Program-made: the position numbers and the translations under genes
In this document: in pieces, positions 1 through 28,385 of the stretch
How positions within the stretch are numbered: position 1 is the stretch's first letter
Layout of the letters: the number at the start of each line of letters is the position of its first letter
NCBI GenBank assembly: GCA_035540635.1
Contig: DATLGH010000110.1
Span: 1 to 46,156, forward strand
DNA length: 46,156 nt
Direction of reading: 5' to 3'
Source: Egibacteraceae bacterium
GTDB taxonomy: Bacteria; Actinomycetota; Nitriliruptoria; Euzebyales; Egibacteraceae
Notes under the pieces: model-generated
What the model was told of the DNA's origin: nothing
What the model saw: the letters and a program-made list of their open reading frames with translations, nothing else
Databases searched by the model: none

Positions 1-738
1 CACGAGCGTGGAGGGGTGGGGGAACTTGCCGTAGAACAGGTTGACCATCTCCCGGCCGAGCCGGGTCATCTGGATGGCCTCGAGATAGATCTTGCCGGTC
101 AGGGGCGCCATCGCGTCCATGATGTCTTTGATCGTCTCGTAACCGTGCAGGCCCGAGTGCGGCGCAAGCGTCGTCTCGGCCTTGCGGACGATCTCGGGGT
201 TGGTGACCTCCACGAGCGGGGTCGAGTAGTCCGGACCCGACAGCAGCCCGAGGTGGATCGGCGCGTCGTAGAGCATCTCGGCGAGCTCGCCGAGGTTGCG
301 CGCGAGAATCCCCATGGGCGGCGGACGCACGCCGAACGCCATGTCCATGCACTGCGCGGACGTGGTCGCGTGCACGCCACCGCACACGCCGCAGGCGCGG
401 GAGGTGAGGTCGATCGAGTCGCGCGGGTCGCGGCCCTCGAGGATGAGCTCGTAGCCGCGGAAGAGCATCGCCATCGAGTGGCACTCGACGGCTTCGCGCT
501 TCTCGAGGTCGAGCTGGACGTGGACCGCGAGCGCGCCGGCCACCCGGGTGATCGGGTCGATCATCCAGTCGCGGACCTTCGGCTCGGTCGCCACGGCGCC
601 ACCAGCCACGCGGGCGGTCTTGGTCTTCGTGAAGCCCTTGGGCTTCGCGCCGTCGACCGTCCAGGGGTTGGCCACGCCCTCCTTCAGCTTGGCTCTTCCG
701 AGGTCGTCGAATTCAACGGGCAGGTTCTTGAAGCACAT
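1..738 (-). CDS. hhyL: [NiFe]-hydrogenase large subunit, N-terminal part (truncated by window start)
   Basis: Hand translation of the minus strand from the ATG at 738 (RBS GGAG upstream) gives MCFKNLPVEFDD...RDPRDSIDLTSRACGVCGGVHATTSAQ. This carries the L1 Ni-binding motif RxCGxCxxxH. The gene lies immediately downstream of the small subunit gene. Confidence 0.85.
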   Translation of the reverse strand, partial: MCFKNLPVEFDDLGRAKLKEGVANPWTVDGAKPKGFTKTKTARVAGGAVATEPKVRDWMIDPITRVAGALAVHVQLDLEKREAVECHSMAMLFRGYELILEGRDPRDSIDLTSRACGVCGGVHATTSAQCMDMAFGVRPPPMGILARNLGELAEMLYDAPIHLGLLSGPDYSTPLVEVTNPEIVRKAETTLAPHSGLHGYETIKDIMDAMAPLTGKIYLEAIQMTRLGREMVNLFYGKFPHPSTLV

Positions 739-772: not shown

Positions 773-1996
773 TCAGGTCTTGTTCGCCCGCTGGCGGGCG
801 CGGTAGGCCTTGTAGAACAGCTTCTTGGCACTGCCGGGCTCGGACTTGTAGCGCGCCCAGCCGGAGGGCGCGCCGTCCTCGGTCCAGCGGGTGGTCATGT
901 TCTTGTCTTCCATGGTGATGGCGCGCATCCTGCGGATGGCGCCGCCCACGACCTTGGAGGCGCTGCTCGACACGAACGAGCCCGGGGAGGCCGCGTAGAT
1001 CGGGGCGAACTTGTCGGGGAAGCCCGGCATCGTGCAACCGATGCAGATGCCGCCCATGTTCATGCAGCCGCCGGTGCCGTTCACGATGCCGCGCTCGGCG
1101 ATGTTGCACTGCACGACGGGGCCCCAGCAGCCGAGCTCGACGAGGCACTCCTTGTCGCCGTACTCCTCCGCGAACACGCCTTCCTCGTAGTAGCCGGCAC
1201 GCGGGCAGTGGCGGTGGACGGTCTCGCCGAAGAGCCACGCGGGCCGTCCGAGCTCGTCGAACTCCGGCAGCGGGGCGAGGCCCTGGAGGAAGAGGATGAC
1301 CGCGGCTGCGGTCTCCATGAAGTTGTCACCAATCGGCGAGCAACCCGGAACGTTCACGACGGGCACGCCGAACGCCGAGCGGTAGTCGCGCCCGAGGAAG
1401 TCCATGACGGCCATGGAACCGGTGATGTTGCCCTCGGCGGCGGGGATGCCACCCCAGGTGGCGCAGGTGCCGATCGCCACGACGGCGGCGGCCTTCGGCG
1501 CCAGGCGCTTCATCCACTCCGCGGAGGTGATGGGCTGGCCCGTCGCCGGGTCGTCGCCGAGCCCCATGAAGAAGCCGTCGCCCGACTTCGTCTCGTCGAA
1601 CATGCTCCCCTCCCAGGTGATGACGAAGGGGGCGTCGAGCTCGCCGCGCTCGGCCATGTGCAGGTTCTCGATCCACTCCGCGCCCGACTCGACGGACACG
1701 ACCGTGTGAATGAGCTCGAGCTTCGGGAGCCCGGGGACGATGCCGTTCAGGAGGTGCTCCACCGGGGGGTTCGTGGCACCGGCCACCGCGATGGTGCACC
1801 CGTCACAGGAGCCGCCCACCATCCAGATGAGGTAGAGCTTCTCCAGCGGGCCGAGCCGCATCCGGTTCGGCGGGTCCGTGGAGGGCACCCGGCTCCGCAT
1901 CGCGATCGGTGCGAACGGGTCGTAGTCCGAGAGCTCTCGGACATCCCGACCCGTCGACGTGCCTGGATGGGGCTGAGCCCCCATGCGTTCAACCAT
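773..1996 (-). CDS. hhyS: [NiFe]-hydrogenase small subunit (group 1h/5-like, no Tat signal apparent); start codon uncertain
   Basis: The 407-aa ORF contains LIWMVGGSCDGCTIAVAGATNPP and many Cys in FeS-cluster-like spacing (GCSPIG, CWGPVVQCN, CIGCTMPGFPD). It is followed by the large subunit gene. Confidence 0.9.
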   Translation of the reverse strand: MVERMGAQPHPGTSTGRDVRELSDYDPFAPIAMRSRVPSTDPPNRMRLGPLEKLYLIWMVGGSCDGCTIAVAGATNPPVEHLLNGIVPGLPKLELIHTVVSVESGAEWIENLHMAERGELDAPFVITWEGSMFDETKSGDGFFMGLGDDPATGQPITSAEWMKRLAPKAAAVVAIGTCATWGGIPAAEGNITGSMAVMDFLGRDYRSAFGVPVVNVPGCSPIGDNFMETAAAVILFLQGLAPLPEFDELGRPAWLFGETVHRHCPRAGYYEEGVFAEEYGDKECLVELGCWGPVVQCNIAERGIVNGTGGCMNMGGICIGCTMPGFPDKFAPIYAASPGSFVSSSASKVVGGAIRRMRAITMEDKNMTTRWTEDGAPSGWARYKSEPGSAKKLFYKAYRARQRANKT

Positions 1997-3684: not shown

Positions 3685-3755
3685 TGTCCCCGACACTGTG
3701 TCGGGACCTGCTAACTCGATGTTCCCCGCACTGTGTCCCGCGCTGCTAATTGGAC
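3685..3755. promoter_or_regulatory. Two ~32-bp direct repeats, each with a GACAC-N-GTGTC palindrome followed by CTGCTAAyT, upstream of the orphan hydrogenase-like gene
   Basis: Read directly: tgtccccgACACTGTGTCgggaccTGCTAActcga and ttccccgcACTGTGTCccgcgCTGCTAAttgga. An AT-richer stretch (cacgtattgag) follows. Confidence 0.35.
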
Positions 3756-3848
3756 ATTCCACGTATTGAGCAAGTCCGGTTTCCGCCCCACCATGCCGGT
3801 GAAACCGCCTCGACGTCCGTCGGGGTGACGACAGCGGAAGGACGCACG

Positions 3849-5570
3849 ATGGCGGCTGCGGCGCCCACTCCAACCCGGCCACTGACCACGCGGGAGGGCA
3901 GCGCGCGCGCTGGCCGGTCCACGATCCTCCACGACCCCGTGACCCGCGTGGGGGGAGGGCTCGGCGTCCGGGTCGAGACGCAGGGTTCCACGATCACCGA
4001 CGCGCACGTCTCGGGGACCTCGTTCCGGGGTTACGAGCCGATCCTGCTGGGACGCGACCCCCGCGACTTCCTCCCGCTCATCTCCCGTGCGTGCGGCTGG
4101 TGCGGCAGCATCCACCAGACGACCGCGTCGGTGGCCGAGGAGATGGCGTGGGGCCTGAGGCCGCCGCCGATGGCGCTCGCGCTGCGCGGGATCGCTCAGG
4201 CTACCGAGGCGATCTGGATCCACGCCGCGCACCTCGCCGTGCGGGCGGGGCCTGACTACTCCGCTCCGGTCGTGCGGAGGACCACCCCGTGGGTGTGGGA
4301 CCTCGCGAAACGCACCGAGGCGCCCGGGGCGGCGACGCACGGCTACAAGACCATCGCCGAGCTCATGGAGGAGCTGCGCTACTTCGAGGGCAAGTACTGG
4401 TGGAACACCATCCCGGCGGGCCGCAAGGTTCTCGAGATGATCAACCTCATGTACGGCAAGTACCCCCACCCGTCGGTGCTGAGCCCCGGCGGCGTCGGCT
4501 CCACCCTCACCGTGGGCAACTTCACCTACTACTACACCCGCCTCTACCAGTCGGTGGACTACGTCAAGCAGGTCATCGCCATCTGGGACGACCTCGTCGA
4601 CTTCCTCTACGCGGCCGACCCGCGATTCGCCGAACAGGGGGAGCGCCCCGCGAGCTTCATCCACGCGGGCGCCTGGGACCACGACGCCGCGAGCGGCTAC
4701 GACGGCAGCTGGGCCGGGCTGGACAACGACGGTCGCCGGCGCCTCGCTCCGCCGGGGGTCATGCTCGACGGTCGGCTCGCGACCGGTCGGCTGAGCGAGG
4801 TGAACGCCGGCGTCGAGGAGTCGGTTGCGCACTCCTTCTACAGCGGCTGGGAGTCGTCGGGGGGCACCGACCCGAGCGGAGGCGCGCTGTCCTCGGGGCA
4901 TCCGTGGAACAAGACGACCATCGCCGCGCCGGCACCGCGCGACTTCGCCGGCGCCTACTCCTGGTGCACCGCACCGCGCTGGCAGGGCAACGTCGTCGAG
5001 AGCACGCCACTCGGCCGTCTGTGGCTCACCGCGCAGCGGACGGACTTCCCGCCGAACGACTACATCGAGCCGACCGGCACGAGTGTCCGGATCCTCGTCC
5101 CGGAGAACTTCCTTCCCGAGACCATTGTCGAGTGGCACATCCCCAAGCGCGTCAACACCCTCGAGCGCCTGCGCGCCGACGCCTACGGGGTCGCGTTCTC
5201 GGGCCTCTGCGCGGCGCTCTGCGTGCTCGACGGTTTCACGCTCATGCGCCACCGCCGCACCGACGTGTCGCACGGCTTCACCGTCCCGAAGGGCGAGACG
5301 GCCGGCGTCGGACTGTTGGACTCCGGGCGTGGCATGAACGCCCACTACCTCCGGACGGACGGCAAGCGCCGGATCAGCACGATGCAGGTCGTCGGCCCGT
5401 CCACGTGGAACGCCTCGCCGCGCGACGCCACGGGCCAGCCCGGGCCGCTCGAGGAGGCGCTCATCGGCACGCCGATCATCGAGGAACCCGCAGACGGCCG
5501 CCTGACCGGTATCGACGCCATCCGAACCATTCACGGCTTTGATCCGTGTATGCACTGCGGCACGCACTAG
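3849..5570 (+). CDS. orphan [NiFe]-hydrogenase large-subunit paralog (no adjacent small subunit, no C-terminal extension)
   Basis: L1 motif RACGWCGSIHQ and L2 motif DPCMHCGTH, the latter immediately followed by the stop codon. About 40% identity to hhyL over the N-terminal ~200 aa by eye. Start ATG at 3849 with RBS GGAAGGA. Confidence 0.8.
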   Translation: MAAAAPTPTRPLTTREGSARAGRSTILHDPVTRVGGGLGVRVETQGSTITDAHVSGTSFRGYEPILLGRDPRDFLPLISRACGWCGSIHQTTASVAEEMAWGLRPPPMALALRGIAQATEAIWIHAAHLAVRAGPDYSAPVVRRTTPWVWDLAKRTEAPGAATHGYKTIAELMEELRYFEGKYWWNTIPAGRKVLEMINLMYGKYPHPSVLSPGGVGSTLTVGNFTYYYTRLYQSVDYVKQVIAIWDDLVDFLYAADPRFAEQGERPASFIHAGAWDHDAASGYDGSWAGLDNDGRRRLAPPGVMLDGRLATGRLSEVNAGVEESVAHSFYSGWESSGGTDPSGGALSSGHPWNKTTIAAPAPRDFAGAYSWCTAPRWQGNVVESTPLGRLWLTAQRTDFPPNDYIEPTGTSVRILVPENFLPETIVEWHIPKRVNTLERLRADAYGVAFSGLCAALCVLDGFTLMRHRRTDVSHGFTVPKGETAGVGLLDSGRGMNAHYLRTDGKRRISTMQVVGPSTWNASPRDATGQPGPLEEALIGTPIIEEPADGRLTGIDAIRTIHGFDPCMHCGTH

Positions 5571-5660: not shown

Positions 5661-5939
5661 ATGAGCACCGGCTGGGTCATCGGCTTCGGGGTGGGCGCGG
5701 CGGTGGTGGTGGTCGTCGTCGTGCTGCTCCTGCTCATGATCGCCGGTATGCGCGCCGCGGCCATCCGGGCGGAGTCGATCCTGGCCGCCCTCCACGCCGC
5801 TCGGGACAACACCCAGGGACTCTGGGAGATCGAGCGCATCAACACCCTGACCACCCGCATCCTCGTCGCCGCCACCACCGCCCGGCAGGCGCTCGCCCGC
5901 CGGGCCGGGTACCGCGTAGGGGAGGTCGGTCAGCGATGA
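5661..5939 (+). CDS. small single-pass membrane protein, family C (paralog array 1)
   Basis: RBS AAGGAG precedes the start. N-terminal hydrophobic helix GAAVVVVVVVLLLLMIAG. Paralogous to 5936..6196, 9805..10077 and 10074..10361. Confidence 0.6.
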   Translation: MSTGWVIGFGVGAAVVVVVVVLLLLMIAGMRAAAIRAESILAALHAARDNTQGLWEIERINTLTTRILVAATTARQALARRAGYRVGEVGQR

Positions 5940-6196
5940 CCGACGAGACCCTGTGGTGGACCGCTCTCGGTCTCGGGGCGGTGGTCGCCGTCGTCGCGGT
6001 CGCCCTCCTTCAGGTGTTCCTCGGGTACGTCCGCCGGGTCGAACGGGGGGCGGAGGCGATCTGGGAGGCCGGCAAGCAGGTCGCGCGCAACACCTCGACG
6101 ACGTGGATGCTCGGGCAGACCTCCGAGCGCCTCGACGAGCTCGCCGCCGAGGCGGCGCGCCACGACGCGTTCCTGCGCTCGGTCAAGGGGGCATGA
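5936..6196 (+). CDS. small single-pass membrane protein, family C
   Basis: ATGA overlap with the upstream gene. Product MTDETLWWTALGLGAVVAVVAVALL... contains the shared W..LG.GAVV motif. Confidence 0.6.
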   Translation: MTDETLWWTALGLGAVVAVVAVALLQVFLGYVRRVERGAEAIWEAGKQVARNTSTTWMLGQTSERLDELAAEAARHDAFLRSVKGA

Positions 6197-6200
6197 GCCG

Positions 6201-6518
6201 ATGCGTCCCCTGCTCGTCGCCCTGACCGCCGCGGAGATCACCCTCGTCGTCGTCGTGCTCGCCGTGTACCTCCACAAGATCGCGGGATCGCTGCGGGCTA
6301 CCGCAGGGTTCCTCGGCAAGACGAACTTCGGCGTGCGCGCGATCGAGTCGCAGTGCGCCCCGATCGGGCCGGCGGTCACGAGGATCAACGCGCAGCTGGG
6401 CGTCATCTCGTCGGCGCTCGGCGGCCTCGCCGACCTCGCCGAGGGGCTTCCGACCCAGACCAACGGTCGGGACCCCAAGCACACCTCCTCCCGGAGAAGG
6501 AGAAAGAGCCGTGGCTGA
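6201..6518 (+). CDS. small single-pass membrane protein, family A (FGVRAI motif)
   Basis: TM helix followed by GKTNFGVRAIESQ..PIGPAV..INAQL. Paralogous to 9031..9273, 9542..9808 and 28117..28368. Confidence 0.6.
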   Translation: MRPLLVALTAAEITLVVVVLAVYLHKIAGSLRATAGFLGKTNFGVRAIESQCAPIGPAVTRINAQLGVISSALGGLADLAEGLPTQTNGRDPKHTSSRRRRKSRG

Positions 6519-6924
6519 ACTGCAGACCCCGAAGTCGGAGGCGCTGCGCGCCCTGTTCTGGAGGAGCGAGATCCTCCAGGTCATGTACTGGCTGCGGGGG
6601 GAGGGCCTCGGTGACGAGATCACCCCGCGGATGATGGAGCGCTTCCTCGGCGTGGGCGCGGAGGTCGGGGTCACCTACCTCAACCGGCTCGTCGAGGAGG
6701 GCTACCTCGACCGCACCGAGCGGGGGTTCACCCTGTCTCCCCGCGGTATCGAGGAGGGGGCGGCAGAGTTCGCGTCTTCGTTCGCCGAGCTCACCCGGCC
6801 CACCCACGGCGAGTGCAGCGCCGACTGCTGGTGCCACAACTCGCCGGAGGAGGCGGACGCCTGTGCCGCCGAGCGCGGCGCTCACAGCCACTCCCACGAT
6901 CACGACCACGACCACGACCACTGA
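6511..6924 (+). CDS. winged-helix protein with Cys4 plus His-rich (HSHSHDHDHDHDH) metal-binding tail
   Basis: GTG start with a strong RBS GGAGAAGGAG. The C-terminus reads HGECSADCWCHNSPEEADACAAERGAHSHSHDHDHDHDH. Confidence 0.6.
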   Translation: MAELQTPKSEALRALFWRSEILQVMYWLRGEGLGDEITPRMMERFLGVGAEVGVTYLNRLVEEGYLDRTERGFTLSPRGIEEGAAEFASSFAELTRPTHGECSADCWCHNSPEEADACAAERGAHSHSHDHDHDHDH

Positions 6925-6977
6925 GCCGCTGCGTCGCAGCGGCCCTGGAAGCCGAGCCGGACCCCGGGGAGCCCACC

Positions 6978-7358
6978 ATGTCCACCTCACGCATAGACGA
7001 CGCGCCGGGCGGCTTGCCCCGCAACTACCTGCGGCCCTGCCTGCTCCTCCTCCTCGGTGAGGGAGCCTCGCACGGCTACGAGCTGCTCGAGCAGGTGGGC
7101 GTCCTCGGGCTCGAGAAGGCCGACCCGGGTGGTCTCTACCGCACTCTGCGGGCCATGGAGCAGGAAGAGCTCGTGCGCTCGTGGTGGGAGCACTCCGAGT
7201 CGGGTCCCGCGCGGCGGACGTACGACCTCACGGAGGAGGGGCGTGACTGGCTCCACGCCTGGGCTGGATCCCTGCGTGAGGTGCACCGGCTGCTCGGGCT
7301 CTACCTCGACCGCTACGAGGCCCTGGTCGAGGGCTCGCACTCGACCCTCACGTCATGA
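6978..7358 (+). CDS. PadR-family transcriptional regulator
   Basis: LLLLLGEGASHGYELLEQ...GGLYRTLRAMEQEELV is a typical PadR winged helix. Confidence 0.8.
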   Translation: MSTSRIDDAPGGLPRNYLRPCLLLLLGEGASHGYELLEQVGVLGLEKADPGGLYRTLRAMEQEELVRSWWEHSESGPARRTYDLTEEGRDWLHAWAGSLREVHRLLGLYLDRYEALVEGSHSTLTS

Positions 7359-8128
7359 GGATCGCGCTCGCCGGCAAGGGCGGTGCCGGCAAGACGACGA
7401 CGTCGGCGACGCTGGCACGGCTTCTCGCCCTGGGCGGGACGCCCGTCGTCGCCATCGACGCCGACAGCAACCCCAACCTCTCCTTCGCCCTCGGCGTCCC
7501 GCGGGAGGAGGCGACGCAGGCCAGGGGCCTGCCGACCTCGCTCGTCTCCCGCCGCCTCGGTGGCCCGGGCCTGACCCAGTCGCTCGACACCGCCCTGGAC
7601 CGGCACGCGATCGTCGCGCCCGACGGGGTCCGCGTCCTGCTCATGGGGATGCCCGCGCACGCGGAGGAGGGATGCCTCTGCTCGGCGCACGCGACGGTCA
7701 GCGCGGTCCTCGAGGACCTCGGAACCCGGCAGGAGGTGGTGACGATCATGGACATGGAAGCGTCACCGGAGCACCTGAGCCGGGGCACCGCCCGCCACGT
7801 CGATCAGCTGCTGCTCATCACCGAGCCCTACTACCGGTCGCTGGAGACGGCGCGCAGGATGGCGGCCCTCGCCGCGGAGCTGCCGATCTCCCGCGTGGCC
7901 GTGGTCGGCAACAAGATCCGCTCTGAGGGCGACGCCGAGGCGATCGGCGCCTTCTCGGAGCGACACGGCCTCGAGGTGGCCGGTTACGTCCCGTGGAGCG
8001 ACGCCGTGACGGAGGCCGACGCGCAGGGCGTCCCCCTCGTCGAGCGCGACCCCGACGGTCCCGCTGTCCAGGCCATCGCCGAGCTCGCTCGGGGACTCGT
8101 CGCGTACCAGTTCCAGACGGCGGGTTAG
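7355..8128 (+). CDS. CooC/MinD-family P-loop ATPase (putative Ni-insertion accessory protein), paralog 1
   Basis: Deviant Walker A GKGGAGKTTT, DADSNPNL, and CxC motif GCLCSAHA. ATGA overlap with the PadR gene. Confidence 0.85.
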   Translation: MRIALAGKGGAGKTTTSATLARLLALGGTPVVAIDADSNPNLSFALGVPREEATQARGLPTSLVSRRLGGPGLTQSLDTALDRHAIVAPDGVRVLLMGMPAHAEEGCLCSAHATVSAVLEDLGTRQEVVTIMDMEASPEHLSRGTARHVDQLLLITEPYYRSLETARRMAALAAELPISRVAVVGNKIRSEGDAEAIGAFSERHGLEVAGYVPWSDAVTEADAQGVPLVERDPDGPAVQAIAELARGLVAYQFQTAG

Positions 8129-8189
8129 GGCACCCGCAAACCGGTTAGACTGCGGGCTGCTCCGGGCAGCTCGACCAAAGCGGTTCGCC

Positions 8190-8675
8190 ATGCCGGTTAC
8201 GCCCGTCAGTGAAGAGCGGCTCCGCGTCGTGGTCACGCGCGAGCGCCGCACGCCTCCGCGACTCTACGAGCGCAATCCCGTCGCGGGGCTCATCGTCGAG
8301 AGCATGGCGAAGGCCAGCGACCGCCACGAGCACGCCGTGCGCGATGCCGGGGCCTTCCTGCTGGACCTCCTCCGCGCGAACGAGCCCGAGGCGCCGTGCC
8401 TGTCCCTGCCCGTGGCGATGCGGGTCCTCGCCCGCGACGAGGCTCGGCCGATGGACGATGTGTGCTGCTACCTCTCGCGCACCGCACGCCAGGACGTCCT
8501 GCTCGGCATCGCCGTGCACGCCCTCGTCGGCGGCTGCGTGGGCCCGCGCCGGCGCCGCCAGGAGCACACCGACGCGCGCCGCGAGGCCGTGATCCGGACC
8601 CTCTACCTGCTGCTCCGCATGTTCGAGGCCCAGCAGCAGGTCGACGACCTCCATCACCACTACGCCGCCGACTAG
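8190..8675 (+). CDS. hypothetical protein
   Basis: ORF with a strong GC3 bias. Confidence 0.55.
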   Translation: MPVTPVSEERLRVVVTRERRTPPRLYERNPVAGLIVESMAKASDRHEHAVRDAGAFLLDLLRANEPEAPCLSLPVAMRVLARDEARPMDDVCCYLSRTARQDVLLGIAVHALVGGCVGPRRRRQEHTDARREAVIRTLYLLLRMFEAQQQVDDLHHHYAAD

Positions 8676-8691
8676 CAGCCCGCCGGCAACC

Positions 8692-8723
8692 GAGAAGCCC
8701 CCCGCATCGGCGGGGGGCTTCTC
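8692..8723. terminator. 12-bp perfect inverted repeat (GAGAAGCCCCCC / GGGGGGCTTCTC) between convergent genes, a possible bidirectional terminator
   Basis: Read directly from the sequence. No T-tract follows. Confidence 0.4.
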
Positions 8724-8726
8724 CGT

Positions 8727-8774
8727 GGTCTTGCTCAACGATGGTCTTGCTCAACGATGGTCTTGCTCAACGGT
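8727..8774. repeat. 16-bp tandem repeat GGTCTTGCTCAACGAT x3
   Basis: Read directly from the sequence. The third copy reads ...AACGGT. Confidence 0.7.
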
Positions 8775-8806
8775 CCCAGGACCTGGGACCGTCGCAACCT
8801 GTTCGC

Positions 8807-8977
8807 CTACTTCCTGGCGGACCGGAGGGCGAAGCGCTGGAGGGTCTTGCTCACGTTCTGCACCTTGTGCTTGGTGCGGAGGTGGTCAGCGACCTTGCTC
8901 AGCAGCTCGTCCTCGCTCGAGGCCTTGAAGTGGCCCTTGCAGGTTGCGCCTGCATCCGTTCAGCGGAACTCGGGCAT
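8807..8977 (-). CDS. DUF1059-like small protein with in-frame TGA at codon 6 (candidate selenocysteine; otherwise a nonsense pseudogene)
   Basis: Strong RBS AAAGGGAGGAG lies 7 nt before the ATG at 8977. Translation is MPEFR-TGA-TDAGATCKGHFKASSEDELLSKVADHLRTKHKVQNVSKTLQRFALRSARK. The TGA aligns with the Cys of the in-window paralog at 27903..28076 (MAVQLACADVGVACGAV...). Confidence 0.5.
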
Positions 8978-9030
8978 GTGCTCTGCTCCTCCCTTTGGGA
9001 CTGCCTGTCTCCAAGTCTTACCCCTTGGCG

Positions 9031-9273
9031 TCAGCCCTGCACGCCGAGGGTCTGGTCGAGCGCGACGCGGGCCTCCTCCAGGTTGGAGTAGATCTCGCCG
9101 ATGAGCGGCTCGAGCGGCTCGCCGCCCTGCGCGATCGCGCGGACACCGGCGTTGATCGTGCCGACGGTGAAGTTGACGTGGTTCAGGATGACCGCCACAC
9201 GGATGAGGTAGGCGGCGAGCACCGCGACGGTGGCGAACACGAGCACCAGGACGAACCAGCCTGCGAGTGGCAT
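9031..9273 (-). CDS. small single-pass membrane protein, family A
   Basis: Product MPLAGWFVLVLVFATVAVLAAYLIRVAVILNHVNFTVGTINAGVRAIAQG... Confidence 0.6.
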   Translation of the reverse strand: MPLAGWFVLVLVFATVAVLAAYLIRVAVILNHVNFTVGTINAGVRAIAQGGEPLEPLIGEIYSNLEEARVALDQTLGVQG

Positions 9274-9283
9274 GCGATGCTCC

Positions 9284-9529
9284 TTATCCGAGTTGCTGGA
9301 GGGCCGCGCCGTAGCTCTTGACCCCCGCGGCCACCTGTGCGGTCTGGTCGCGGGTCTCTTCGAGCAGGTCGACCCCGTCGAGGGCGGCGATGAGCAGCAC
9401 GCCGTGCTCGAGCACGTCGTCCGCGTACCGCTTGATCTCCACGATCGGTTCCATGAGGTTGTTCAGCAGGGTGATGACGACCGGGATGACGGCCAGGATG
9501 ATGATGCCGAGTACCCACAACCACAACAT
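9284..9529 (-). CDS. small single-pass membrane protein, family B (EI..YAD..LEHGV motif)
   Basis: Strong RBS GGGAGGAG. Product MLWLWVLGIIILAVIPVVITLLNNLMEPIVEIKRYADDVLEHGV... Paralogous to 28386..28634. Confidence 0.6.
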   Translation of the reverse strand: MLWLWVLGIIILAVIPVVITLLNNLMEPIVEIKRYADDVLEHGVLLIAALDGVDLLEETRDQTAQVAAGVKSYGAALQQLG

Positions 9530-9541
9530 TGTCGCTCCTCC

Positions 9542-9808
9542 CTACCGCACGGCTTGGGCGTAGCGCTGCACGTTCGACGCGATGCGGGGCAGCATCTGGT
9601 TGATCTCCCGCAGCCCCTGGTTCACGCGCTGGACGGGCGGGCCGATCGACAGCACCTGCTCCTCCACGGCGCGCACGCCGAAGGCGACGTTGGCGAGGGT
9701 AGCCGAGATCGACTTCAGCCTCGTGGTGATGACGACGAGGTAGATCGCGAGCACGAGGACGAGGAGGACCACCTCGATGAAGGTCAGGACGACGAGCAAA
9801 CCACTCAT
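9542..9808 (-). CDS. small single-pass membrane protein, family A
   Basis: Internal ATG at 9808 with ATGA overlap. Product MSGLLVVLTFIEVVLLVLVLAIYLVVITTRLKSISATLANVAFGVRAVEEQ... Confidence 0.6.
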   Translation of the reverse strand: MSGLLVVLTFIEVVLLVLVLAIYLVVITTRLKSISATLANVAFGVRAVEEQVLSIGPPVQRVNQGLREINQMLPRIASNVQRYAQAVR

Positions 9809-10077
9809 ACTTGACTCCAGAGCTGATCGTGCCGCTTGATCTCTTCCTTCAGCTTGTCCACGGTGTTGGCCGTGCCCTGCAGCTGCCAGGCCGTCGCGGT
9901 GTTCGCCGCGAGCTTCGTCGCCATCTGCCACACGTCGGCGAGACCGCGGTCGATGTCCTGGACGAACCGCAGCAGCAGGGTGAGGAGGGCGATCACGACG
10001 GCGATGACGACGGCGCCGATGCCGAGCGCCACCGACCACATCGCGATCTCCTGCGGTGCGTACGCGAGAACCCTCAT
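9805..10077 (-). CDS. small single-pass membrane protein, family C
   Basis: Product MRVLAYAPQEIAMWSVALGIGAVVIAVVIALL... ATGA overlaps with both neighbouring genes. Confidence 0.6.
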   Translation of the reverse strand: MRVLAYAPQEIAMWSVALGIGAVVIAVVIALLTLLLRFVQDIDRGLADVWQMATKLAANTATAWQLQGTANTVDKLKEEIKRHDQLWSQV

Positions 10078-10361
10078 GCCTGGGCCTCCAGTGCCTCACG
10101 GGCTTCCGTCGCGCGCTCGAGGATCGCCTTCGCGGTGGCGTTGACGGAGTCGATGTCCCACAGGGGCAGCGTCGTCTGCCGACCCTGGTCGAGGCCGACG
10201 AGGATCTCCTGCGCCTGCTTGGCGATCCGGGCCGCCCGCGACAGGATCGCCGAGACGACGATGACGACGACCCAGACGATGGCGAAACCGATTCCGAGGC
10301 CGAGCCACCACCCGAAAAGGTGCGGCTCGCCAGGGGCGTGCTCAGCTAACGTAACGAGCAT
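10074..10361 (-). CDS. small single-pass membrane protein, family C-like
   Basis: RBS AAGGAG. Product ...LFGWWLGLGIGFAIVWVVVIVVSAIL... Confidence 0.55.
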   Translation of the reverse strand: MLVTLAEHAPGEPHLFGWWLGLGIGFAIVWVVVIVVSAILSRAARIAKQAQEILVGLDQGRQTTLPLWDIDSVNATAKAILERATEAREALEAQA

Positions 10362-10411
10362 TCATCACTCCTTACTGTGCCGGAGGTTTGCCCTCCGACT
10401 ACGATCGACGG

Positions 10412-11726: not shown

Positions 11727-11734
11727 GGGGCCTC

Positions 11735-12448: not shown

Positions 12449-12459
12449 GTTCTTGCCTC

Positions 12460-14272: not shown

Positions 14273-14453
14273 GTTCGTCTCGCCGTCCTCTCCCCGCGAC
14301 CTCGGGCTGAAAGGAGCCCGAGAAGCCTCCACGTCAACTATATGCGGCTAACATGGAGCGCAGCGTTACTAGTCCCCCCGGAGCAGCCGCGAAGGCCTGT
14401 GCGAAGGGGTGGCGACCAGTACGATGGATGTCCCAACCCGCGGAGGACCACGT

Positions 14454-14732
14454 ATGTGTCTCGGCATTCCCGGCAAGATCGTGGAGCTGGTCGACCCCGA
14501 CAACGGGATCGCCAAGGCGGACGTGAACGGGGTGCGCCGCAACGTCTCCATCCAGCTCATCCCCAAGGAAGAAGGCGGCGTCGAGGTCGGTGACTGGGTC
14601 CTGATCCACGTCGGCTTCGCGATGTCGAAGATCGACGAGCAGGAGGCCGAGGACACCTTCCGGTTCCTCGAGCAGCTCGGTGCCATGTACGAGGAGGAGC
14701 TCTCCGACCTCGCCAAGAGCGACATCGAGTAG
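14454..14732 (+). CDS. hypC: hydrogenase maturation factor HypC/HupF
   Basis: Starts MCLGIPGKIVE (the canonical MC(L)xIP N-terminus) after RBS GGAGGA. Carries ...VGDWVLIHVGFAM. Confidence 0.85.
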   Translation: MCLGIPGKIVELVDPDNGIAKADVNGVRRNVSIQLIPKEEGGVEVGDWVLIHVGFAMSKIDEQEAEDTFRFLEQLGAMYEEELSDLAKSDIE

Positions 14733-14742
14733 GAGGCTCACT

Positions 14743-15369
14743 GTGAGCCAGCAGTCGACGGCAATGGTGCGGTCGGCGATCGATGACGCGAGAGCCCGCC
14801 GGCGGGCACCCGGCGAGGCGGTGGCGGCCGAAGCCGAGCGCGTTGCGCGAGCCTGCCACGCGATGGCGGCGCGCTTCCACCAGGGCGGCAAGCTCGTCGG
14901 CTTCGGCAACGGCGGCACGACCTCGGACGCCCAGCACGTGTCGGTGGAGTTCGTGCACCCCGTCATCGTGGGCAAGCGCGCCCTGCCGGGGATCTCGCTC
15001 ACCAGCGACGTCGCGACGATCACCGGCGTGGCCAACGACGAGGGCTTCACCGAGGTCTTCGCCCACCAGCTGCGCTACCTCGCCAACCCCGAGGACATCG
15101 CGCTGGGGGTCTCCTCCGACGGGCGGTGCGCGAACGTCCTGCGGGGCCTCCAGGTCGCCAAGGAGCGCGGGCTGCTCACCGTCGCGCTCGTCGGCGGTGA
15201 CGGCGGGCCGATCGCCGCGGATCCCGCCGTCGACCACGTGCTCCTCGCCAGGTCCCCCGATCCCCGTGTCGTGAAGGAGGTCCACGTGACCCTCTACCAC
15301 ATCCTGTGGGAGCTGGTGCACGTGTTCTTCGAGCAGCCGGGCGTGCTGAGCCCCGAGGTCCTGCGGTGA
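14743..15369 (+). CDS. SIS-domain protein (GmhA/DiaA-like), paralog 1
   Basis: GTG start with RBS GGAGG. Contains the GFGNGGTTSDAQH motif. Confidence 0.75.
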   Translation: MSQQSTAMVRSAIDDARARRRAPGEAVAAEAERVARACHAMAARFHQGGKLVGFGNGGTTSDAQHVSVEFVHPVIVGKRALPGISLTSDVATITGVANDEGFTEVFAHQLRYLANPEDIALGVSSDGRCANVLRGLQVAKERGLLTVALVGGDGGPIAADPAVDHVLLARSPDPRVVKEVHVTLYHILWELVHVFFEQPGVLSPEVLR

Positions 15370-15614
15370 GCACCGATCCGATCCCTCTCGGCACGCAGCT
15401 CCCGCCGCCCGTCCCCGAGTGCTACGGAGACGTCTGCATCACGTGCTCCGACGAGGCGGTGGAGGTGACGGTCCTCGAGATGCTCGACGACGGGCTCGCC
15501 CGGGTGGACACCGGTGAGAGCGTCGAGGTGGTGAGCGTCATGCTCGTCGACGCCGAGGTCGGCGCTCGCATCCTCGTGCACGCCAAAGAAGCCATCGTCC
15601 GTCTGGAGGACTGA
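15366..15614 (+). CDS. HypC/HupF-family-like protein lacking the canonical N-terminal Cys (CITC instead)
   Basis: GTGA overlap with the upstream gene. Segment ARVDTGESVEVVSVMLVDAEVGARILVHAKEAI resembles the HypC beta-barrel C-terminal region. Confidence 0.45.
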   Translation: MSTDPIPLGTQLPPPVPECYGDVCITCSDEAVEVTVLEMLDDGLARVDTGESVEVVSVMLVDAEVGARILVHAKEAIVRLED

Positions 15615-15615
15615 G

Positions 15616-16305
15616 GTGGACGCCGACGACCAGGTCGGGGGCATCGAGGCCCTCTACCCCTTCCTCTACGCCGACGCGTCCAACGTCGACGCCGTGCTCG
15701 CCGAGGTGCGCCGCTCCACGGTGGCCAAGGCCGCCGAGATCGTGGCGCTGCGCGAGGAGGTCTTCGACCTCCACGCCGAGCGGCTCGTCGCCTGCGCCGA
15801 GGCGATGGCCGCCTCCTTTGCCGCCGGCGGCAGGCTCTTCGCGTTCGGCAACGGCGGTTCGAGCACGGACGCCCAGGACGTCGTCAACACCTTCCTCCAC
15901 CCCGGCCTCCCCACCGGACCGGCCGTCCGTCCGCTGCCGGCGCTGTCGCTCACCGGCGACGTGGCCGTGCTGACGGCCCTGTCCAACGACGTCGGGTTCG
16001 ACGTCGTCTACGCTCGGCAGATCGCCGCCTTCTCCCGCGCCGGCGACATCGCGTTCGGGCTGTCGACGAGCGGCGGGTCGGCGAACGTGCTGCGGGCGTT
16101 CGACGAGGCCTCGCGACGCGGCCTCGTCACCGTGGGGCTCGCCGGCTACGACGGGGGCCAGATGGCTGACGCCGACACCATCGACTACCTGTTCGTTGTG
16201 CCGTCCTCCTCGGTGCACCGCATCCAGGAGGCCCAGACCACGCTGTACCACGTCCTGTGGGAACTCACCCAGACGGCCCTGGAAGGGCGAGGAGCGAAGC
16301 TATGA
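15616..16305 (+). CDS. SIS-domain protein, paralog 2
   Basis: Contains FAFGNGGSSTDAQD. Confidence 0.75.
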   Translation: MDADDQVGGIEALYPFLYADASNVDAVLAEVRRSTVAKAAEIVALREEVFDLHAERLVACAEAMAASFAAGGRLFAFGNGGSSTDAQDVVNTFLHPGLPTGPAVRPLPALSLTGDVAVLTALSNDVGFDVVYARQIAAFSRAGDIAFGLSTSGGSANVLRAFDEASRRGLVTVGLAGYDGGQMADADTIDYLFVVPSSSVHRIQEAQTTLYHVLWELTQTALEGRGAKL

Positions 16306-17426
16306 AGTTCGTCGACGAGTACCGCGACGCCGAGATCGCCAAGCGCCTGGCGAAGGAGATCGCCGAGCTCGCGGGGTCTCGGGAGTACAAGTTCATGGAG
16401 GTGTGCGGGGGTCACACGCACACCATCTACCGCCACGGCCTCGAGGACTACCTGCCCGAGAACGTGCACCTCATCCACGGCCCCGGCTGTCCCGTCTGCG
16501 TGATCCCGATGGGGCGGGTCGACGACGCGATCGCCATCGCCGAGCAGGACGACGTCATCATGACCTCGTTCGGCGACATGATGCGCGTGCCCGGCGGACG
16601 CGGCTCGTTCTTCGACTCGAACGCCGCCGGGGCGGACATCCGCATGGTGTACTCCCCGCTCGACGCGCTGAAGATCGCGCGCAACAACCGTGACAAGCGC
16701 GTCGTGTTCATGGCGATCGGCTTCGAGACCACGGCCCCCTCGACCGCGGCGACCGTGCTGCGTGCGGCCGCCGAGGGCCTCGACAACTTCTCCATCTTCT
16801 GCAACCACGTGACGATCATCCCGGCGATCAAGGCGATCCTCGACTCACCGGACCTGCGCCTCGACGGCTTCATCGGACCCGGCCACGTGTCGACGGTGAT
16901 CGGCTGCCGCCCCTACGAGTTCATTCCCCGGGACTACGGCAAGCCGATCGTCTGCTCAGGCTTCGAGCCGCTCGACATCCTCCAGGGCGTCTACATGATC
17001 CTCAAGCAGATCCAGGAGGGCCGCTCGGAGGTGGAGAACCAGTACAGCCGCGTGGTGCCCTGGGACGGCAACCGCCGTGCCCTCGAGGTCATCGGCCGCA
17101 CGATGGAGCTCCGCCCGTACTTCGAGTGGCGCGGGCTCGGCTTCATCTCCCAGTCGGCGATGCAGGTCCGCGAGGAGTACGCCGCCTTCGACGCCGAGCG
17201 CGTCTTCGACGTCCCCGGGGTCCGCGTGGCCGACCCGAAGGCCTGCCAGTGCGGTGAGGTCCTGAAGGGTGTGCTGAGGCCGTGGGAGTGCAAGGTGTTC
17301 GGCACCGCGTGCACACCGGAGACCCCGATCGGCACCTGCATGGTGTCGAGCGAGGGCGCCTGCGCCGCGTACTACAACTTCGGGCGCTTTACGCGTGAGC
17401 GCGTCCGGGAGGCGACCGTCACATGA
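16302..17426 (+). CDS. hypD: hydrogenase maturation factor HypD
   Basis: MKFVDEYRD...EVCGGHTH...GPGCPVCV carries the HypD CGxH and GPGCPVC motifs. Confidence 0.9.
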   Translation: MKFVDEYRDAEIAKRLAKEIAELAGSREYKFMEVCGGHTHTIYRHGLEDYLPENVHLIHGPGCPVCVIPMGRVDDAIAIAEQDDVIMTSFGDMMRVPGGRGSFFDSNAAGADIRMVYSPLDALKIARNNRDKRVVFMAIGFETTAPSTAATVLRAAAEGLDNFSIFCNHVTIIPAIKAILDSPDLRLDGFIGPGHVSTVIGCRPYEFIPRDYGKPIVCSGFEPLDILQGVYMILKQIQEGRSEVENQYSRVVPWDGNRRALEVIGRTMELRPYFEWRGLGFISQSAMQVREEYAAFDAERVFDVPGVRVADPKACQCGEVLKGVLRPWECKVFGTACTPETPIGTCMVSSEGACAAYYNFGRFTRERVREATVT

Positions 17427-28368: not shown

Positions 28369-28385
28369 CGGCCGATTCCTCTCGG

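What the first reader, a model, noticed from the sequence alone, without database searches (positions are those of the whole stretch)
5661..10361. Three tandem arrays of novel small single-pass membrane proteins that form three paralog families
The eleven proteins in the arrays are small (about 80-105 aa), each with one N-terminal TM helix and a short conserved soluble domain. Family A carries L..V..TLGKV.FGVRAI..Q...IGP, family B carries EI..YAD..LEHGV..L..LD....L..TRD, and family C carries W..LG.GAVV....LL. The arrays are 5661..6518 (plus strand: C, C, A), 10361..9031 (minus strand: C, C, A, B, A, then DUF1059 with TGA) and 28634..28117 (minus strand: B, A, then DUF1059 with Cys). Strong RBSs and ATGA overlaps indicate genuine, translationally coupled genes. 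Each array lies within about 3 kb of a CooC-like ATPase. I cannot assign them to a known family.
Basis: seen in the sequence. Interest (0 to 1): 0.75.

Follow-up and report, generated by a model that had tools for sequence, protein, structure and literature searches.

The report
Hydrogenase membrane-anchor proteins (HylTM1-5), two sets
The small membrane-protein genes are real, but they are not a new family: they are two complete sets of the five "HylTM" single-helix proteins already reported next to atmospheric-hydrogen-oxidising [NiFe]-hydrogenases, probably the stalk that ties the enzyme to the membrane.

Summary
Ten (not eleven) small genes sit at the stated coordinates. All are clearly coding, and each has one N-terminal membrane helix.

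They form five orthologous groups rather than three families: Ca, Cb, A-alpha, B and A-beta. The window holds exactly two copies of each.

- **Conserved context.** In 72 loci from other Actinomycetota genomes, the same genes sit in a conserved [NiFe]-hydrogenase cluster with CooC-type ATPases, DUF1059, NifU, TPR and PadR genes.
- **Match to the published layout.** In a Chloroflexaceae locus with the published group 1l layout (small subunit, five small genes, large subunit), the five interposed genes match my five profiles one to one. Their order is the same as in window array 2.
- **Identity.** These are therefore HylTM1-5 (Ortiz et al. 2020/21). B plus A-beta are also the "two small single-TM proteins" of the group 1m cluster (Ray et al. 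2022).
- **Function.** This is untested. The likeliest role is a cytoplasm-facing helical stalk that anchors the Tat-less hydrogenase to the membrane and gives it access to quinone.

What is new here:
- the five-group mapping across cluster types;
- the doubled set;
- a divergent orphan large subunit;
- a DUF1059 with a possible selenocysteine.

Verdict: new members of a known but uncharacterised kind; modest interest.

The parts
10074..10361 (-). C3: Ca group (HylTM1-like), set I, 95 aa
   Evidence: GC3 0.86 and an AAGGAG ribosome-binding site. Scores 110.8 bits against the Ca HMM. Predicted N-out/C-in.
9805..10077 (-). C4: Cb group (HylTM2-like), set I, 90 aa
   Evidence: ATGA overlap with C3. 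Scores 120.5 bits against the Cb HMM.
9542..9808 (-). A2: A-alpha group (HylTM3-like), set I, 88 aa
   Evidence: ATGA overlap with C4 and GC3 0.96. Scores 88.8 bits against the A-alpha HMM. Carries the FGVRAV motif.
9284..9529 (-). B1: B group (HylTM4-like), set I, 81 aa
   Evidence: GGGAGGAG ribosome-binding site. Scores 94.7 bits against the B HMM. Carries the EI..YAD..LEHGV motif.
9031..9273 (-). A3: A-beta group (HylTM5-like), set I, 80 aa
   Evidence: AAGGAG ribosome-binding site. Scores 93.6 bits against the A-beta HMM.
8807..8976 (-). DUF1059 gene with an in-frame TGA at the first conserved Cys (possible selenocysteine), directly downstream of set I
   Evidence: Sequence read. Pfam PF06348 scores 47.9 bits when the TGA is read as Cys. 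The same TGA position occurs in L069.
5661..5939 (+). C1: Ca group, set II, 92 aa, directly downstream of the orphan large subunit
   Evidence: Scores 98.3 bits against the Ca HMM.
5936..6196 (+). C2: Cb group, set II, 86 aa
   Evidence: ATGA overlap with C1. Scores 117.3 bits against the Cb HMM. AlphaFold2 gives one continuous helix, residues 3-85, pLDDT 92.
6201..6518 (+). A1: A-alpha group, set II, 105 aa
   Evidence: Scores 143.1 bits against the A-alpha HMM.
28386..28634 (-). B2: B group, set II, 82 aa (the longest ORF starts at 28667)
   Evidence: Scores 128.4 bits against the B HMM. JGI calls the 82-aa form (P0134).
28117..28368 (-). A4: A-beta group, set II, 83 aa
   Evidence: Scores 114.5 bits against the A-beta HMM. 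AlphaFold2 gives helix 3-50, a break, then helix 55-82, pLDDT 82.
27903..28076 (-). DUF1059 gene (Cys form) downstream of B2-A4
   Evidence: Pfam PF06348, 43.5 bits. The order B, A-beta, DUF1059 is widespread: DUF1059 occurs in 63 of 72 loci.
773..1996 (-). [NiFe]-hydrogenase small subunit of the 1l/1m type
   Evidence: Pfam hits. SCDGC motif, meaning a four-Cys proximal cluster. C-terminal extension with a PSGW motif and no Tat motif.
1..738 (-). [NiFe]-hydrogenase large subunit 1, N-terminal part, cut by the window edge
   Evidence: 61-65% identical to the large subunits of L047, L068, L069 and L077; 52% to the canonical group 1l locus L078; 43% to group 1h.
3750..5570 (+). Divergent orphan large subunit (LSU2), co-oriented with C1-C2-A1
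   Evidence: Pfam PF00374. 40-44% identical to the full-length 1l/1m large subunits compared and 35% to group 1h.
6511..7358 (+). Winged-helix protein with a Cys/His-rich tail (6511-6924) and a PadR regulator (6975-7358)
   Evidence: The order Ca, Cb, A-alpha, wHTH, PadR, CooC is conserved.
7355..8128 (+). CooC/CbiA-type ATPase
   Evidence: Pfam PF01656.
28803..29576 (+). CooC/CbiA-type ATPase, divergent from B2-A4-DUF1059
   Evidence: Pfam. A CooC-like gene is present in 60 of 72 loci.
14409..18628 (+). HypC, SIS, SIS, HypD and HypE maturation genes
   Evidence: Pfam. The order resembles that upstream of the small subunit in canonical locus L078, HypC-SIS-HypC-SIS-HypD-HypE.

Best explanation
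The ten genes encode two complete sets of the five HylTM-type single-pass membrane proteins. The mapping is Ca = HylTM1-like, Cb = HylTM2-like, A-alpha = HylTM3-like, B = HylTM4-like and A-beta = HylTM5-like. These proteins accompany group 1l/1m [NiFe]-hydrogenases.

- Set I is array 2, which keeps the canonical order Ca-Cb-A-alpha-B-A-beta.
- Set II is split, as in most Actinomycetota. Ca-Cb-A-alpha lie beside the structural genes, and B-A-beta-DUF1059 lie beside a CooC-type ATPase gene.

**Proposed mechanism.**
1. Each protein inserts with a very short N-terminus outside the cell. Its membrane helix continues as a long helix in the cytoplasm.
2. One copy of each of the five proteins bundles into a helical stalk.
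3. [quoted passage not shown]
4. The stalk replaces a cytochrome b anchor, so electrons from the distal Fe-S cluster can reach the quinone pool.

**Shown here:** the genes, the five orthologous groups, the one-of-each conservation, the genomic linkage, the predicted topology and the helical architecture.

**Inferred:** the physical complex, its stoichiometry and quinone reduction.
For: **Five clean orthologous groups.**
- HMMs separate the groups by 38-84 bits over the next-best profile (48-98 bits outside the own superfamily), and each occurs twice in the window.

**Genomic linkage (72 genome loci).**
- B is adjacent to A-beta in 68 loci.
- 19 of the 23 loci of at least 15 kb contain a hydrogenase subunit gene.
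- In 16 loci the 1l/1m-type small-subunit gene has all of Ca, Cb and A-alpha beside it.
- In seven others the small-subunit gene lies at the locus edge; L051 shows Ca only and the other six show none.
- L062, the remaining locus with a small-subunit gene, carries a group 1h small subunit.

**Match to the published layout.**
- Locus L078 (Chloroflexaceae) has the published group 1l layout: small subunit, five small genes, large subunit, then Rieske and HycI genes.
- Its five interposed genes hit Ca, Cb, A-alpha, B and A-beta in that order, at 37, 67, 49, 45 and 34 bits.
- The alignments span the membrane helix and the tail.
- All 200 tail-shuffled controls per protein scored lower, with maxima of 13-31 bits.

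**Four-gene versions.**
- Directly upstream of the small subunit in L073, L075 and L079.

**The linked small subunits.**
- They have the four-Cys SCDGC motif that Ortiz et al. report for group 1l.
- They lack a Tat motif.
- They carry a C-terminal extension with a conserved RW..PSGW..K.FY motif that group 1h lacks.

**Topology.**
- Four of the five groups have essentially no K/R before the membrane helix; A-alpha averages about one.
- All have about 3 K/R in the 15 residues after it.

**Structure.**
- AlphaFold2 models Cb as a single 83-residue helix (pLDDT 92).
- It models A-beta as a long helix plus a second helix.
- Most of the conserved residues in the cytoplasmic part of Cb fall on 7-residue series.

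**Literature.**
- HylTM1-5 were proposed as a membrane anchor.
- An AlphaFold complex model shows them as tube-like scaffolds next to the HylS extension (PMC13554262).
Against: - No experiment exists for any HylTM protein.
- I could not model a complex.
- I could not compare directly with the Hymenobacter roseosalivarius type sequences.
- In the window and in most Actinomycetota, the small genes are not between the subunit genes. B and A-beta are co-oriented with DUF1059, NifU, TPR and BirA-like genes, which look like maturation factors rather than subunits.
- The tri-Cys motif reported for HylTM4 is absent from all 240 relatives examined.
- L065 has the five genes with no hydrogenase gene within 10 kb.
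- No quinone-binding or cofactor-binding motif is evident.
Confidence: 0.6

Rival explanations
1. The small proteins are maturation or metal-delivery factors rather than enzyme subunits. They would form a membrane-tethered platform that works with the CooC-type ATPase, DUF1059 (Cys or Sec), NifU, TPR and BirA-like proteins. That platform would insert nickel or Fe-S clusters into the hydrogenase, or couple nickel import to maturation.
For: - In the 72 loci, the commonest layout has B and A-beta followed by DUF1059, NifU, TPR and a BirA-like gene, with a divergent CooC-like gene beside them. CooC occurs in 60, DUF1059 in 63 and NifU in 49 of 72 loci.
- Peptide/nickel-type ABC transporter genes lie nearby in several loci.
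- The Ca-Cb-A-alpha operon continues into a metal-tail winged-helix gene, PadR and CooC.
Against: - In L078 the five genes sit between the two structural genes, with no DUF1059.
- L067-L072, L073, L075 and L079 also lack DUF1059 next to them.
- The proteins have no conserved Cys pairs or His clusters of the kind expected for metal handling.
- A one-of-each set of five long helices fits a structural assembly better.
Confidence: 0.2
2. The proteins are electron-relay components. They would carry a cofactor, such as an Fe-S cluster bound through Cys motifs as suggested for HylTM4, or a haem, and pass electrons from the hydrogenase into the membrane.
For: Ortiz et al. noted a C-terminal tri-Cys motif in HylTM4 of H. 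roseosalivarius and proposed an "anchoring and electron relaying system".
Against: - None of the 240 A, B and C relatives examined has three or more Cys.
- The five L078 proteins contain no Cys at all.
- No His is conserved within the membrane helices.
- The His of the B motif EHG is replaced in L078 (ESGGG).
Confidence: 0.05
3. The proteins are general membrane or stress proteins of the DUF948/YtxH type. They would merely be neighbours of hydrogenase genes, with a function unrelated to the enzyme.
For: - A2 and A4 give weak DUF948 matches, 17-20 bits.
- L065 has a five-gene set, together with three longer single-pass proteins and a PsbP-like gene, with no hydrogenase gene within 10 kb.
Against: - The DUF948 scores are far below the 37-bit cut-off.
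- Linkage to 1l/1m hydrogenase genes holds across Actinomycetota, a Chloroflexaceae MAG and an Armatimonadetes MAG, despite gene-order changes.
Confidence: 0.05

Closest known systems
HylTM1-5 of group 1l [NiFe]-hydrogenase clusters (Ortiz et al., bioRxiv 10.1101/2020.08.06.239558; modelled in PMC13554262)
   Same: - Five mutually divergent single-pass proteins of about 80-110 aa per hydrogenase.
- They match the five genes interposed between small and large subunit in the canonically arranged locus L078, in the same order.
- The linked small subunit has a four-Cys proximal-cluster motif and a C-terminal extension.
   Different: - Here they are not between the subunit genes. One set is contiguous elsewhere, and the other is split 3 + 2.
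- There are two sets in one genome.
- There is no tri-Cys motif.
- The small-subunit extension is about 20 aa rather than about 100 aa.
- I could not compare directly with the H. roseosalivarius sequences.
The two small single-TM proteins of the group 1m (hhmSL) cluster (Ray et al. 2022, PMC9561532)
   Same: - B2 and A4 are 82-83 aa.
- They are followed by DUF1059 and sit beside a CooC-type ATPase gene.
- The small and large subunit genes are adjacent.
- TPR and NifU-type genes are in the cluster, and probably a BirA-like gene (c9, no Pfam hit). NifU is seen in related loci but not within this window.
   Different: - Ray et al. mention two proteins. The same clusters carry three more (Ca, Cb, A-alpha) on the other side of the subunit genes.
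- The five together correspond to HylTM1-5.
HucM stalk of the group 2a Huc hydrogenase (Grinter et al. 2023; from my own knowledge, not checked here)
   Same: Functional analogy only. Both would be helical, non-cofactor scaffolds that connect a cytoplasmic high-affinity hydrogenase to the membrane and its quinone, in place of a cytochrome b subunit.
   Different: - No sequence relation was tested or is expected.
- HucM is a single protein forming a homo-oligomeric stalk.
- The system here uses five different single-pass proteins.
Cytochrome b membrane anchors of classical group 1 hydrogenases (HyaC/HupC type; from my own knowledge)
   Same: The presumed role is the same: membrane attachment and electron exit to quinone.
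   Different: - Those anchors are multi-pass haem proteins with conserved His ligands, and they serve periplasmic, Tat-exported enzymes.
- These are single-pass proteins with no conserved His in the membrane helix.
- The enzyme here has no Tat signal.
DUF948 (PF06103)
   Same: An N-terminal membrane helix followed by a helical tail. A2 and A4 give weak matches.
   Different: Scores of 17-20 bits fall well below the 37-bit gathering score, so these proteins are not members.

Membership tests
HylTM1-5 (group 1l hydrogenase-associated single-pass proteins) | A small protein with a single transmembrane helix | tested here: met
   All ten proteins are 80-105 aa. Each has one hydrophobic 19-mer with mean Kyte-Doolittle score of at least 2.6 and no second one.
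HylTM1-5 (group 1l hydrogenase-associated single-pass proteins) | Five distinct, mutually divergent genes per hydrogenase cluster (12-30% identity in the type cluster) | tested here: met
   There are five orthologous groups. Each occurs once per locus in most of the 18 loci that carry all five (L065 has two A-alpha hits), and each occurs twice in the window. Identity between groups is about 15-30%.
HylTM1-5 (group 1l hydrogenase-associated single-pass proteins) | Encoded between the small-subunit and large-subunit genes | tested here: not met
   In the window the small subunit (1996-773) and large subunit 1 (738-1) are adjacent, and the arrays lie elsewhere. The feature is met in the homologous locus L078.
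HylTM1-5 (group 1l hydrogenase-associated single-pass proteins) | Sequence homology to the five interposed genes of a canonically arranged group 1l cluster | tested here: met
   L078 tm1-5 score 37, 67, 49, 45 and 34 bits against the Ca, Cb, A-alpha, B and A-beta HMMs, in that order. Every score exceeds all 200 tail-shuffled controls.
HylTM1-5 (group 1l hydrogenase-associated single-pass proteins) | Homology to the type sequences of Hymenobacter roseosalivarius | not testable with these tools
   The sequences were not retrievable.
HylTM1-5 (group 1l hydrogenase-associated single-pass proteins) | [quoted passage not shown] | tested here: not met
   None of the 240 relatives has three or more Cys. 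None of the L078 proteins has the motif.
HylTM1-5 (group 1l hydrogenase-associated single-pass proteins) | The linked small subunit has a four-Cys proximal cluster and a C-terminal extension relative to group 1h | tested here: met
   SCDGC occurs in the window and in every linked small subunit, against SCDGD in group 1h. The tail after the last Fe-S motif is 83 residues in the window, against 62-66 in group 1h and 118-153 in the Chloroflexota-type clusters.
Group 1m cluster small TM proteins (Ray et al. 2022) | Two proteins of 82-92 aa, each with one TM helix and no known domain, in a cluster with DUF1059, a CooC-type ATPase, TPR, an Fe-S assembly protein, a BirA homolog and adjacent small and large subunit genes | tested here: met
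   B2 (82 aa), A4 (83 aa) and DUF1059 lie beside CooC 28803-29576. TPR is at 24347-25645. The full pattern is seen across the loci. No NifU-type gene was found within this window, and c9, taken as the BirA-like gene, has no Pfam hit.
DUF948 (PF06103) | Score at or above Pfam's gathering threshold | tested here: not met
   17.4 and 19.8 bits against a 37.2-bit cut-off.
Cytochrome b-type hydrogenase anchor | A multi-pass membrane protein with conserved haem-ligating His residues | tested here: not met
   Each protein has a single TM helix, with no invariant His in it.

The most novel reading that the evidence does not exclude
The doubled set is not mere redundancy. Set II is co-transcribed with a divergent orphan large subunit (LSU2). 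Set I is coupled to a possibly selenocysteine-containing DUF1059 and, in Egibacteraceae, to three longer single-pass relatives and a PsbP-like protein.

On this reading, the five-helix stalk is a modular membrane platform. It could serve different catalytic or accessory modules, possibly including one that is not the canonical HylSL enzyme.
Probability: 0.15. Interest if true: 0.55.

Novelty: new member of a known kind. Interest (0 to 1): 0.3.

Why it matters
Group 1l/1m hydrogenases are thought to be major sinks for atmospheric H2 in desert and polar soils. How these cytoplasmic enzymes connect to the respiratory chain is unknown.

This analysis shows that one conserved set of five proteins underlies three published or observed layouts:
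- the "five interposed genes" of group 1l;
- the "two small proteins" of group 1m;
- the split 3 + 2 arrangement of Actinomycetota.

That gives experimenters defined orthologous groups and conserved residues to work with. Examples are the GVRA motif in A, the 7-residue series in Cb, and the PSGW motif in the small-subunit tail. It also yields a testable one-of-each stalk model.

It does not reveal a new kind of system.

Tried and rejected
- **Pfam and NCBIfam scans of all ten proteins.** Nothing reached a cut-off.
- **Locus search with the four-sequence family A alignment.** I repeated it with 20 close A-beta relatives.
- **Retrieving H. roseosalivarius HylTM sequences from the papers' supplements.** The stored part of Table S7 stops within group 1h. 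The 2026 paper has no stored supplements, and the PNAS version is not held.
- **Foldseek of the A-beta model against the PDB.** No matches.
- **hhalign of A-beta against B/C.** Probability 1%, so I dropped the idea that all five are detectably one family.
- **Taxonomy of divergent B/C representatives.** Names were sparse, and all named ones were Actinomycetota.
- **SECIS check after the DUF1059 TGA.** The fold was no better than shuffles (z = 0.32). No tRNA gene is in the window.
- **Fragments of a larger protein.** Rejected on the length distribution. The two hits of about 185 aa look like Ca-Cb fusions or merged gene calls.
- **Group 1h membership of the hydrogenase.** Rejected. The small subunit has SCDGC rather than SCDGD, and large-subunit identity to group 1h is at most 48% (at most 45% for the full-length sequences compared).

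Full report
**1. The observation**

The window has 71% GC. It comes from an Egibacteraceae metagenome-assembled genome. GenBank annotates the small genes as hypothetical proteins VM324_16875 to VM324_17050 on a 145-kb contig.

Ten small genes lie at the stated positions:
- C1 5661-5939, C2 5936-6196 and A1 6201-6518 on the plus strand;
- C3 10361-10074, C4 10077-9805, A2 9808-9542, B1 9529-9284 and A3 9273-9031 on the minus strand;
- B2 28634-28386 and A4 28368-28117 on the minus strand.

Their GC3 is 0.86-0.96. Most starts follow a GGAG-type ribosome-binding site, and three junctions are ATGA overlaps.

Within-family BLASTP E-values range from 1e-6 to 4e-21, and the quoted motifs are present. 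Each protein has a single hydrophobic N-terminal segment and no second one.

Both DUF1059 genes pass Pfam's cut-off. The one at 8976-8807 has a TGA where the other has its first Cys. A CooC/CbiA-type ATPase gene lies within 1 kb of each array.

**2. Family structure**

HMMs seeded from the window pairs and iterated on related loci separate five groups cleanly:

| Group | Window members |
|---|---|
| Ca | C1, C3 |
| Cb | C2, C4 |
| A-alpha | A1, A2 |
| B | B1, B2 |
| A-beta | A3, A4 |

Each window protein scores 38-84 bits higher with its own group than with the next-best group, which is always its sister in the same superfamily. The window therefore holds exactly two copies of each of five groups.

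B, Ca and Cb converge into one superfamily on iteration. A-alpha and A-beta form a second superfamily. It has no detectable profile-profile relation to the first (hhalign probability 1%).

Neither superfamily reaches any Pfam or NCBIfam cut-off. The best match is DUF948, at 17-20 bits against a 37-bit cut-off.

**3. Conservation and context**

Family A has 729 relatives and B/C has 474 among 5.8 billion proteins. A full HMMER scan of 1.84 billion cluster representatives found 1,063 B/C members at E <= 1e-3. Nearly all of the listed best 150 are 73-136 aa, so these are free-standing small proteins, not fragments.

A scan of species-representative genomes returned 72 loci. All are from Actinomycetota MAGs except one 2.2-kb contig labelled Gemmatimonadaceae. 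The groups represented include Nitriliruptoria, Acidimicrobiia, Nocardioidaceae, Mycobacteriales and Thermoleophilia.

The dominant gene order is:

CooC< | B> A-beta> DUF1059> NifU> TPR> BirA-like> | large subunit< small subunit< | Ca> Cb> A-alpha> winged-helix> PadR> CooC>

Counts across the 72 loci:

| Feature | Count |
|---|---|
| B adjacent to A-beta | 68 of 72 |
| DUF1059 present | 63 of 72 |
| CooC-like gene present | 60 of 72 |
| Hydrogenase subunit gene present, among loci of at least 15 kb | 19 of 23 |
| Ca, Cb and A-alpha all beside the small-subunit gene | 16 of 24 loci with a small-subunit gene |

- In seven more of those 24 loci the small-subunit gene lies at the locus edge; L051 shows Ca only and the other six show none.
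- The last, L062, carries a true group 1h small subunit.
- A variant order, in L067-L070, is small subunit, large subunit, NifU, then B, A-beta, Ca, Cb, A-alpha in tandem; L071 and L072 show the same five-gene order on loci that hold no subunit gene.
- L077 has B, A-beta, DUF1059, Ca, Cb, A-alpha.

**4. What the hydrogenase is**

The nearest solved structure is the group 1h enzyme 5AA5. Three features set the window's enzyme apart from group 1h:
- The small subunit, like all the linked small subunits, has SCDGC (four Cys at the proximal cluster) where group 1h has SCDGD. Ortiz et al. give this trait for group 1l.
- The small subunit has no Tat motif. It carries a C-terminal extension with a conserved RW..PSGW..K.FY motif that group 1h lacks.
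- Large subunit 1 is 61-65% identical to the large subunits of similar actinobacterial clusters and 52% to that of L078. Identity between these 1l/1m large subunits and group 1h is at most 48% (at most 45% for the full-length sequences compared).

The accessory gene set matches Ray et al.'s description of the group 1m cluster. [quoted passage not shown]

DUF1059, CbiA, PadR, TPR and SIS also appear in the legend of Ortiz et al.'s Figure S5, which compares group 1h and 1l clusters. None of the stored group 1h rows of their Table S7 contains DUF1059. I cannot place the window's enzyme in 1l rather than 1m, so I call it 1l/1m.

**5. The decisive link to HylTM1-5**

I followed a divergent B/C representative (P0333) to its contig. 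It has 49% GC over the 20-kb locus read. It carries four small genes directly upstream of a 490-aa small subunit and a large subunit. These are followed by HycI, a NifU-Rieske protein and CbiA.

Searching with that large subunit returned relatives labelled Chloroflexi, Thermomicrobiales, Chloroflexaceae, Armatimonadetes and Actinomycetota.

One of these is locus L078, from a Chloroflexaceae MAG. It has the published group 1l layout (compare):

HypC, SIS, HypC, SIS, HypD, HypE, small subunit, five genes of 92, 110, 99, 100 and 89 aa, large subunit, two small ORFs, Rieske protein, HycI, HTH-CbiA

My five HMMs were built only from Actinomycetota. They hit L078's five interposed genes one to one, in the same order as window array 2:

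| L078 gene | Best HMM | Score (bits) |
|---|---|---|
| tm1 | Ca | 37 (Cb scores 35, nearly tied) |
| tm2 | Cb | 67 |
| tm3 | A-alpha | 49 |
| tm4 | B | 45 |
| tm5 | A-beta | 34 |

The alignments cover the membrane helix and the tail. With the membrane helix kept and the tail shuffled, none of 200 controls per protein reached the real score. The control maxima were 13-31 bits.

The four-gene versions in L073, L075 and L079 read as Cb-like, A-like, B-like and A-like with the GVRAI motif.

The window's proteins are therefore HylTM homologues, and array 2 keeps the ancestral order. I could not compare them with the H. roseosalivarius type sequences. The tri-Cys motif reported for its HylTM4 is absent from all 240 relatives examined.

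**6. How it probably works**

*Topology.* In four of the five groups, the residues before the membrane helix hold essentially no K/R; A-alpha averages about one. In all five, the 15 residues after it hold about three. This predicts N-out/C-in, which places the tails in the cytoplasm with the Tat-less enzyme.

*Architecture.* AlphaFold2 models Cb as one continuous helix, residues 3-85, with pLDDT 92. It models A-beta as helix 3-50, a break at the conserved TGPxGP, and helix 55-82, with pLDDT 82. Most of the conserved residues in the cytoplasmic part of Cb fall on 7-residue series: 43-50-57, 52-59-66-80 and 55-62-69-76. That is what helices packed in a bundle would show.

*Cofactors.* No Cys pairs and no His within the membrane helix are conserved. 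The proteins are therefore unlikely to carry cofactors.

*Best reading.* Put together with the one-of-each conservation and the position between the structural genes in L078, the best reading is a hetero-oligomeric helical stalk. It would anchor HylS/HylL to the membrane through the small-subunit tail and give the distal cluster access to quinone. This agrees with Ortiz et al.'s proposal and with the AlphaFold complex model in PMC13554262.

The complex, its stoichiometry and quinone reduction are all inferred. Nothing has been tested experimentally.

*Main rival.* The proteins could have a maturation or metal-delivery role. The argument is that in Actinomycetota B and A-beta travel with DUF1059, NifU, TPR, a BirA-like gene and CooC. 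Against this, several cluster types lack DUF1059 beside the small genes.

**7. What is particular to this window**

- There are two full sets. Set I is array 2 plus the TGA-containing DUF1059. Set II is array 1 plus array 3 and the Cys form of DUF1059.
- Set II's Ca-Cb-A-alpha genes follow a divergent orphan large subunit (3750-5570). It is 40-44% identical to the full-length 1l/1m large subunits compared and 35% to group 1h. Both CxxC motifs are intact.
- Set I lies next to a PsbP-like gene and three longer single-pass proteins. Two of the three hit the family HMMs weakly. The Egibacteraceae locus L065 repeats this arrangement, with no hydrogenase gene within 10 kb.
- The rest of the window is a hydrogenase island. 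It holds HypC-SIS-SIS-HypD-HypE, HypF, TPR, several CooC-like genes, MerR, DUF6390 and CoxE/AAA genes.

**8. Verdict**

The genes are real, and the link to hydrogenase, CooC and DUF1059 is correct. The claim of an unassignable novel family is not. These are new members, in an unusual doubled and rearranged form, of the HylTM proteins of group 1l/1m hydrogenases.

The added value is threefold:
- the five-group mapping, which unifies the published 1l and 1m descriptions;
- the conserved small-subunit tail motif;
- the side observations listed below.

Interest is modest.

Noticed in passing
window 8807-8976 (-); L069 near 10320: The DUF1059 gene downstream of set I has an in-frame TGA exactly where its paralogue (27903-28076) and Pfam DUF1059 have the first conserved Cys. 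L069 has the same TGA position. The hairpin after the TGA folds no better than shuffles (z = 0.32), and the window has no tRNA gene. Selenocysteine is therefore plausible but unproven.
   Followed up: partly
window 3750-5570 (+), with 2177-2752 and 2753-3637 upstream: A second, divergent [NiFe] large subunit has no small subunit of its own nearby. It is 40-44% identical to the full-length 1l/1m large subunits compared and 35% to group 1h, and both CxxC motifs are intact. It is co-oriented with C1-C2-A1. The 191-aa gene upstream has relatives in 8 of the hydrogenase loci, while the 294-aa gene has none.
   Followed up: partly
window 11052-13281 (-) and 10388-11011 (+); L065 5648-8716: Three longer single-pass proteins (about 224-273 aa) have repetitive helical tails and two C-terminal Cys each. 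Two of the three hit the family HMMs weakly. They sit beside a PsbP-like gene and set I, and the Egibacteraceae locus L065 has the same arrangement. They have no Pfam hit.
   Followed up: partly
window 773-1996 (-); small subunits in L013, L025, L047, L068, L073, L075, L077-L079: Every small subunit linked to HylTM genes has a C-terminal extension beyond the point where group 1h ends. It carries a conserved RW..PSGW..K.FY motif, a candidate docking site for the stalk. The extension is about 20 aa here and 50-90 aa in the Chloroflexota-type clusters.
   Followed up: partly
window 6511-6924 (+); L073 16197-16562: A winged-helix protein with a Cys/His-rich C-terminal tail follows Ca-Cb-A-alpha. 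It is conserved even in the 49% GC cluster of L073. It is possibly a metal-sensing regulator of the cluster.
   Followed up: no
L073 10001-11220; L075 1885-3162; L079 5430-6567: A four-gene variant of the small-protein set (Cb-like, A-like, B-like, A-like with GVRAI) lies directly upstream of the small subunit instead of between the subunit genes. It occurs in an Armatimonadetes MAG (L079) and in two metagenome contigs of unassigned taxonomy (L073, L075) whose large subunits resemble those of Chloroflexi.
   Followed up: partly
window 30482-31219 (-): Two adjacent ORFs (105 aa with the P-loop, then 132 aa) both cluster with CooC-like ATPases. They look like one CooC-like gene split by a frameshift. 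The window has at least three other intact CooC/CbiA genes.
   Followed up: no
L062 1-1977 and 10001-10427: A true group 1h hydrogenase (SCDGD small subunit, large subunit 81% identical to an HhyL) lies about 8 kb from a CooC, B, A-beta, DUF1059 module. The contig ends before any 1l/1m subunit genes could appear.
   Followed up: no
window 13469-14332 (-), 19078-21682 (-): A DUF6390 gene (320 bits) and a CoxE-like VWA plus AAA ATPase pair sit inside the hydrogenase island. DUF6390 recurs in L023 and L030.
   Followed up: no
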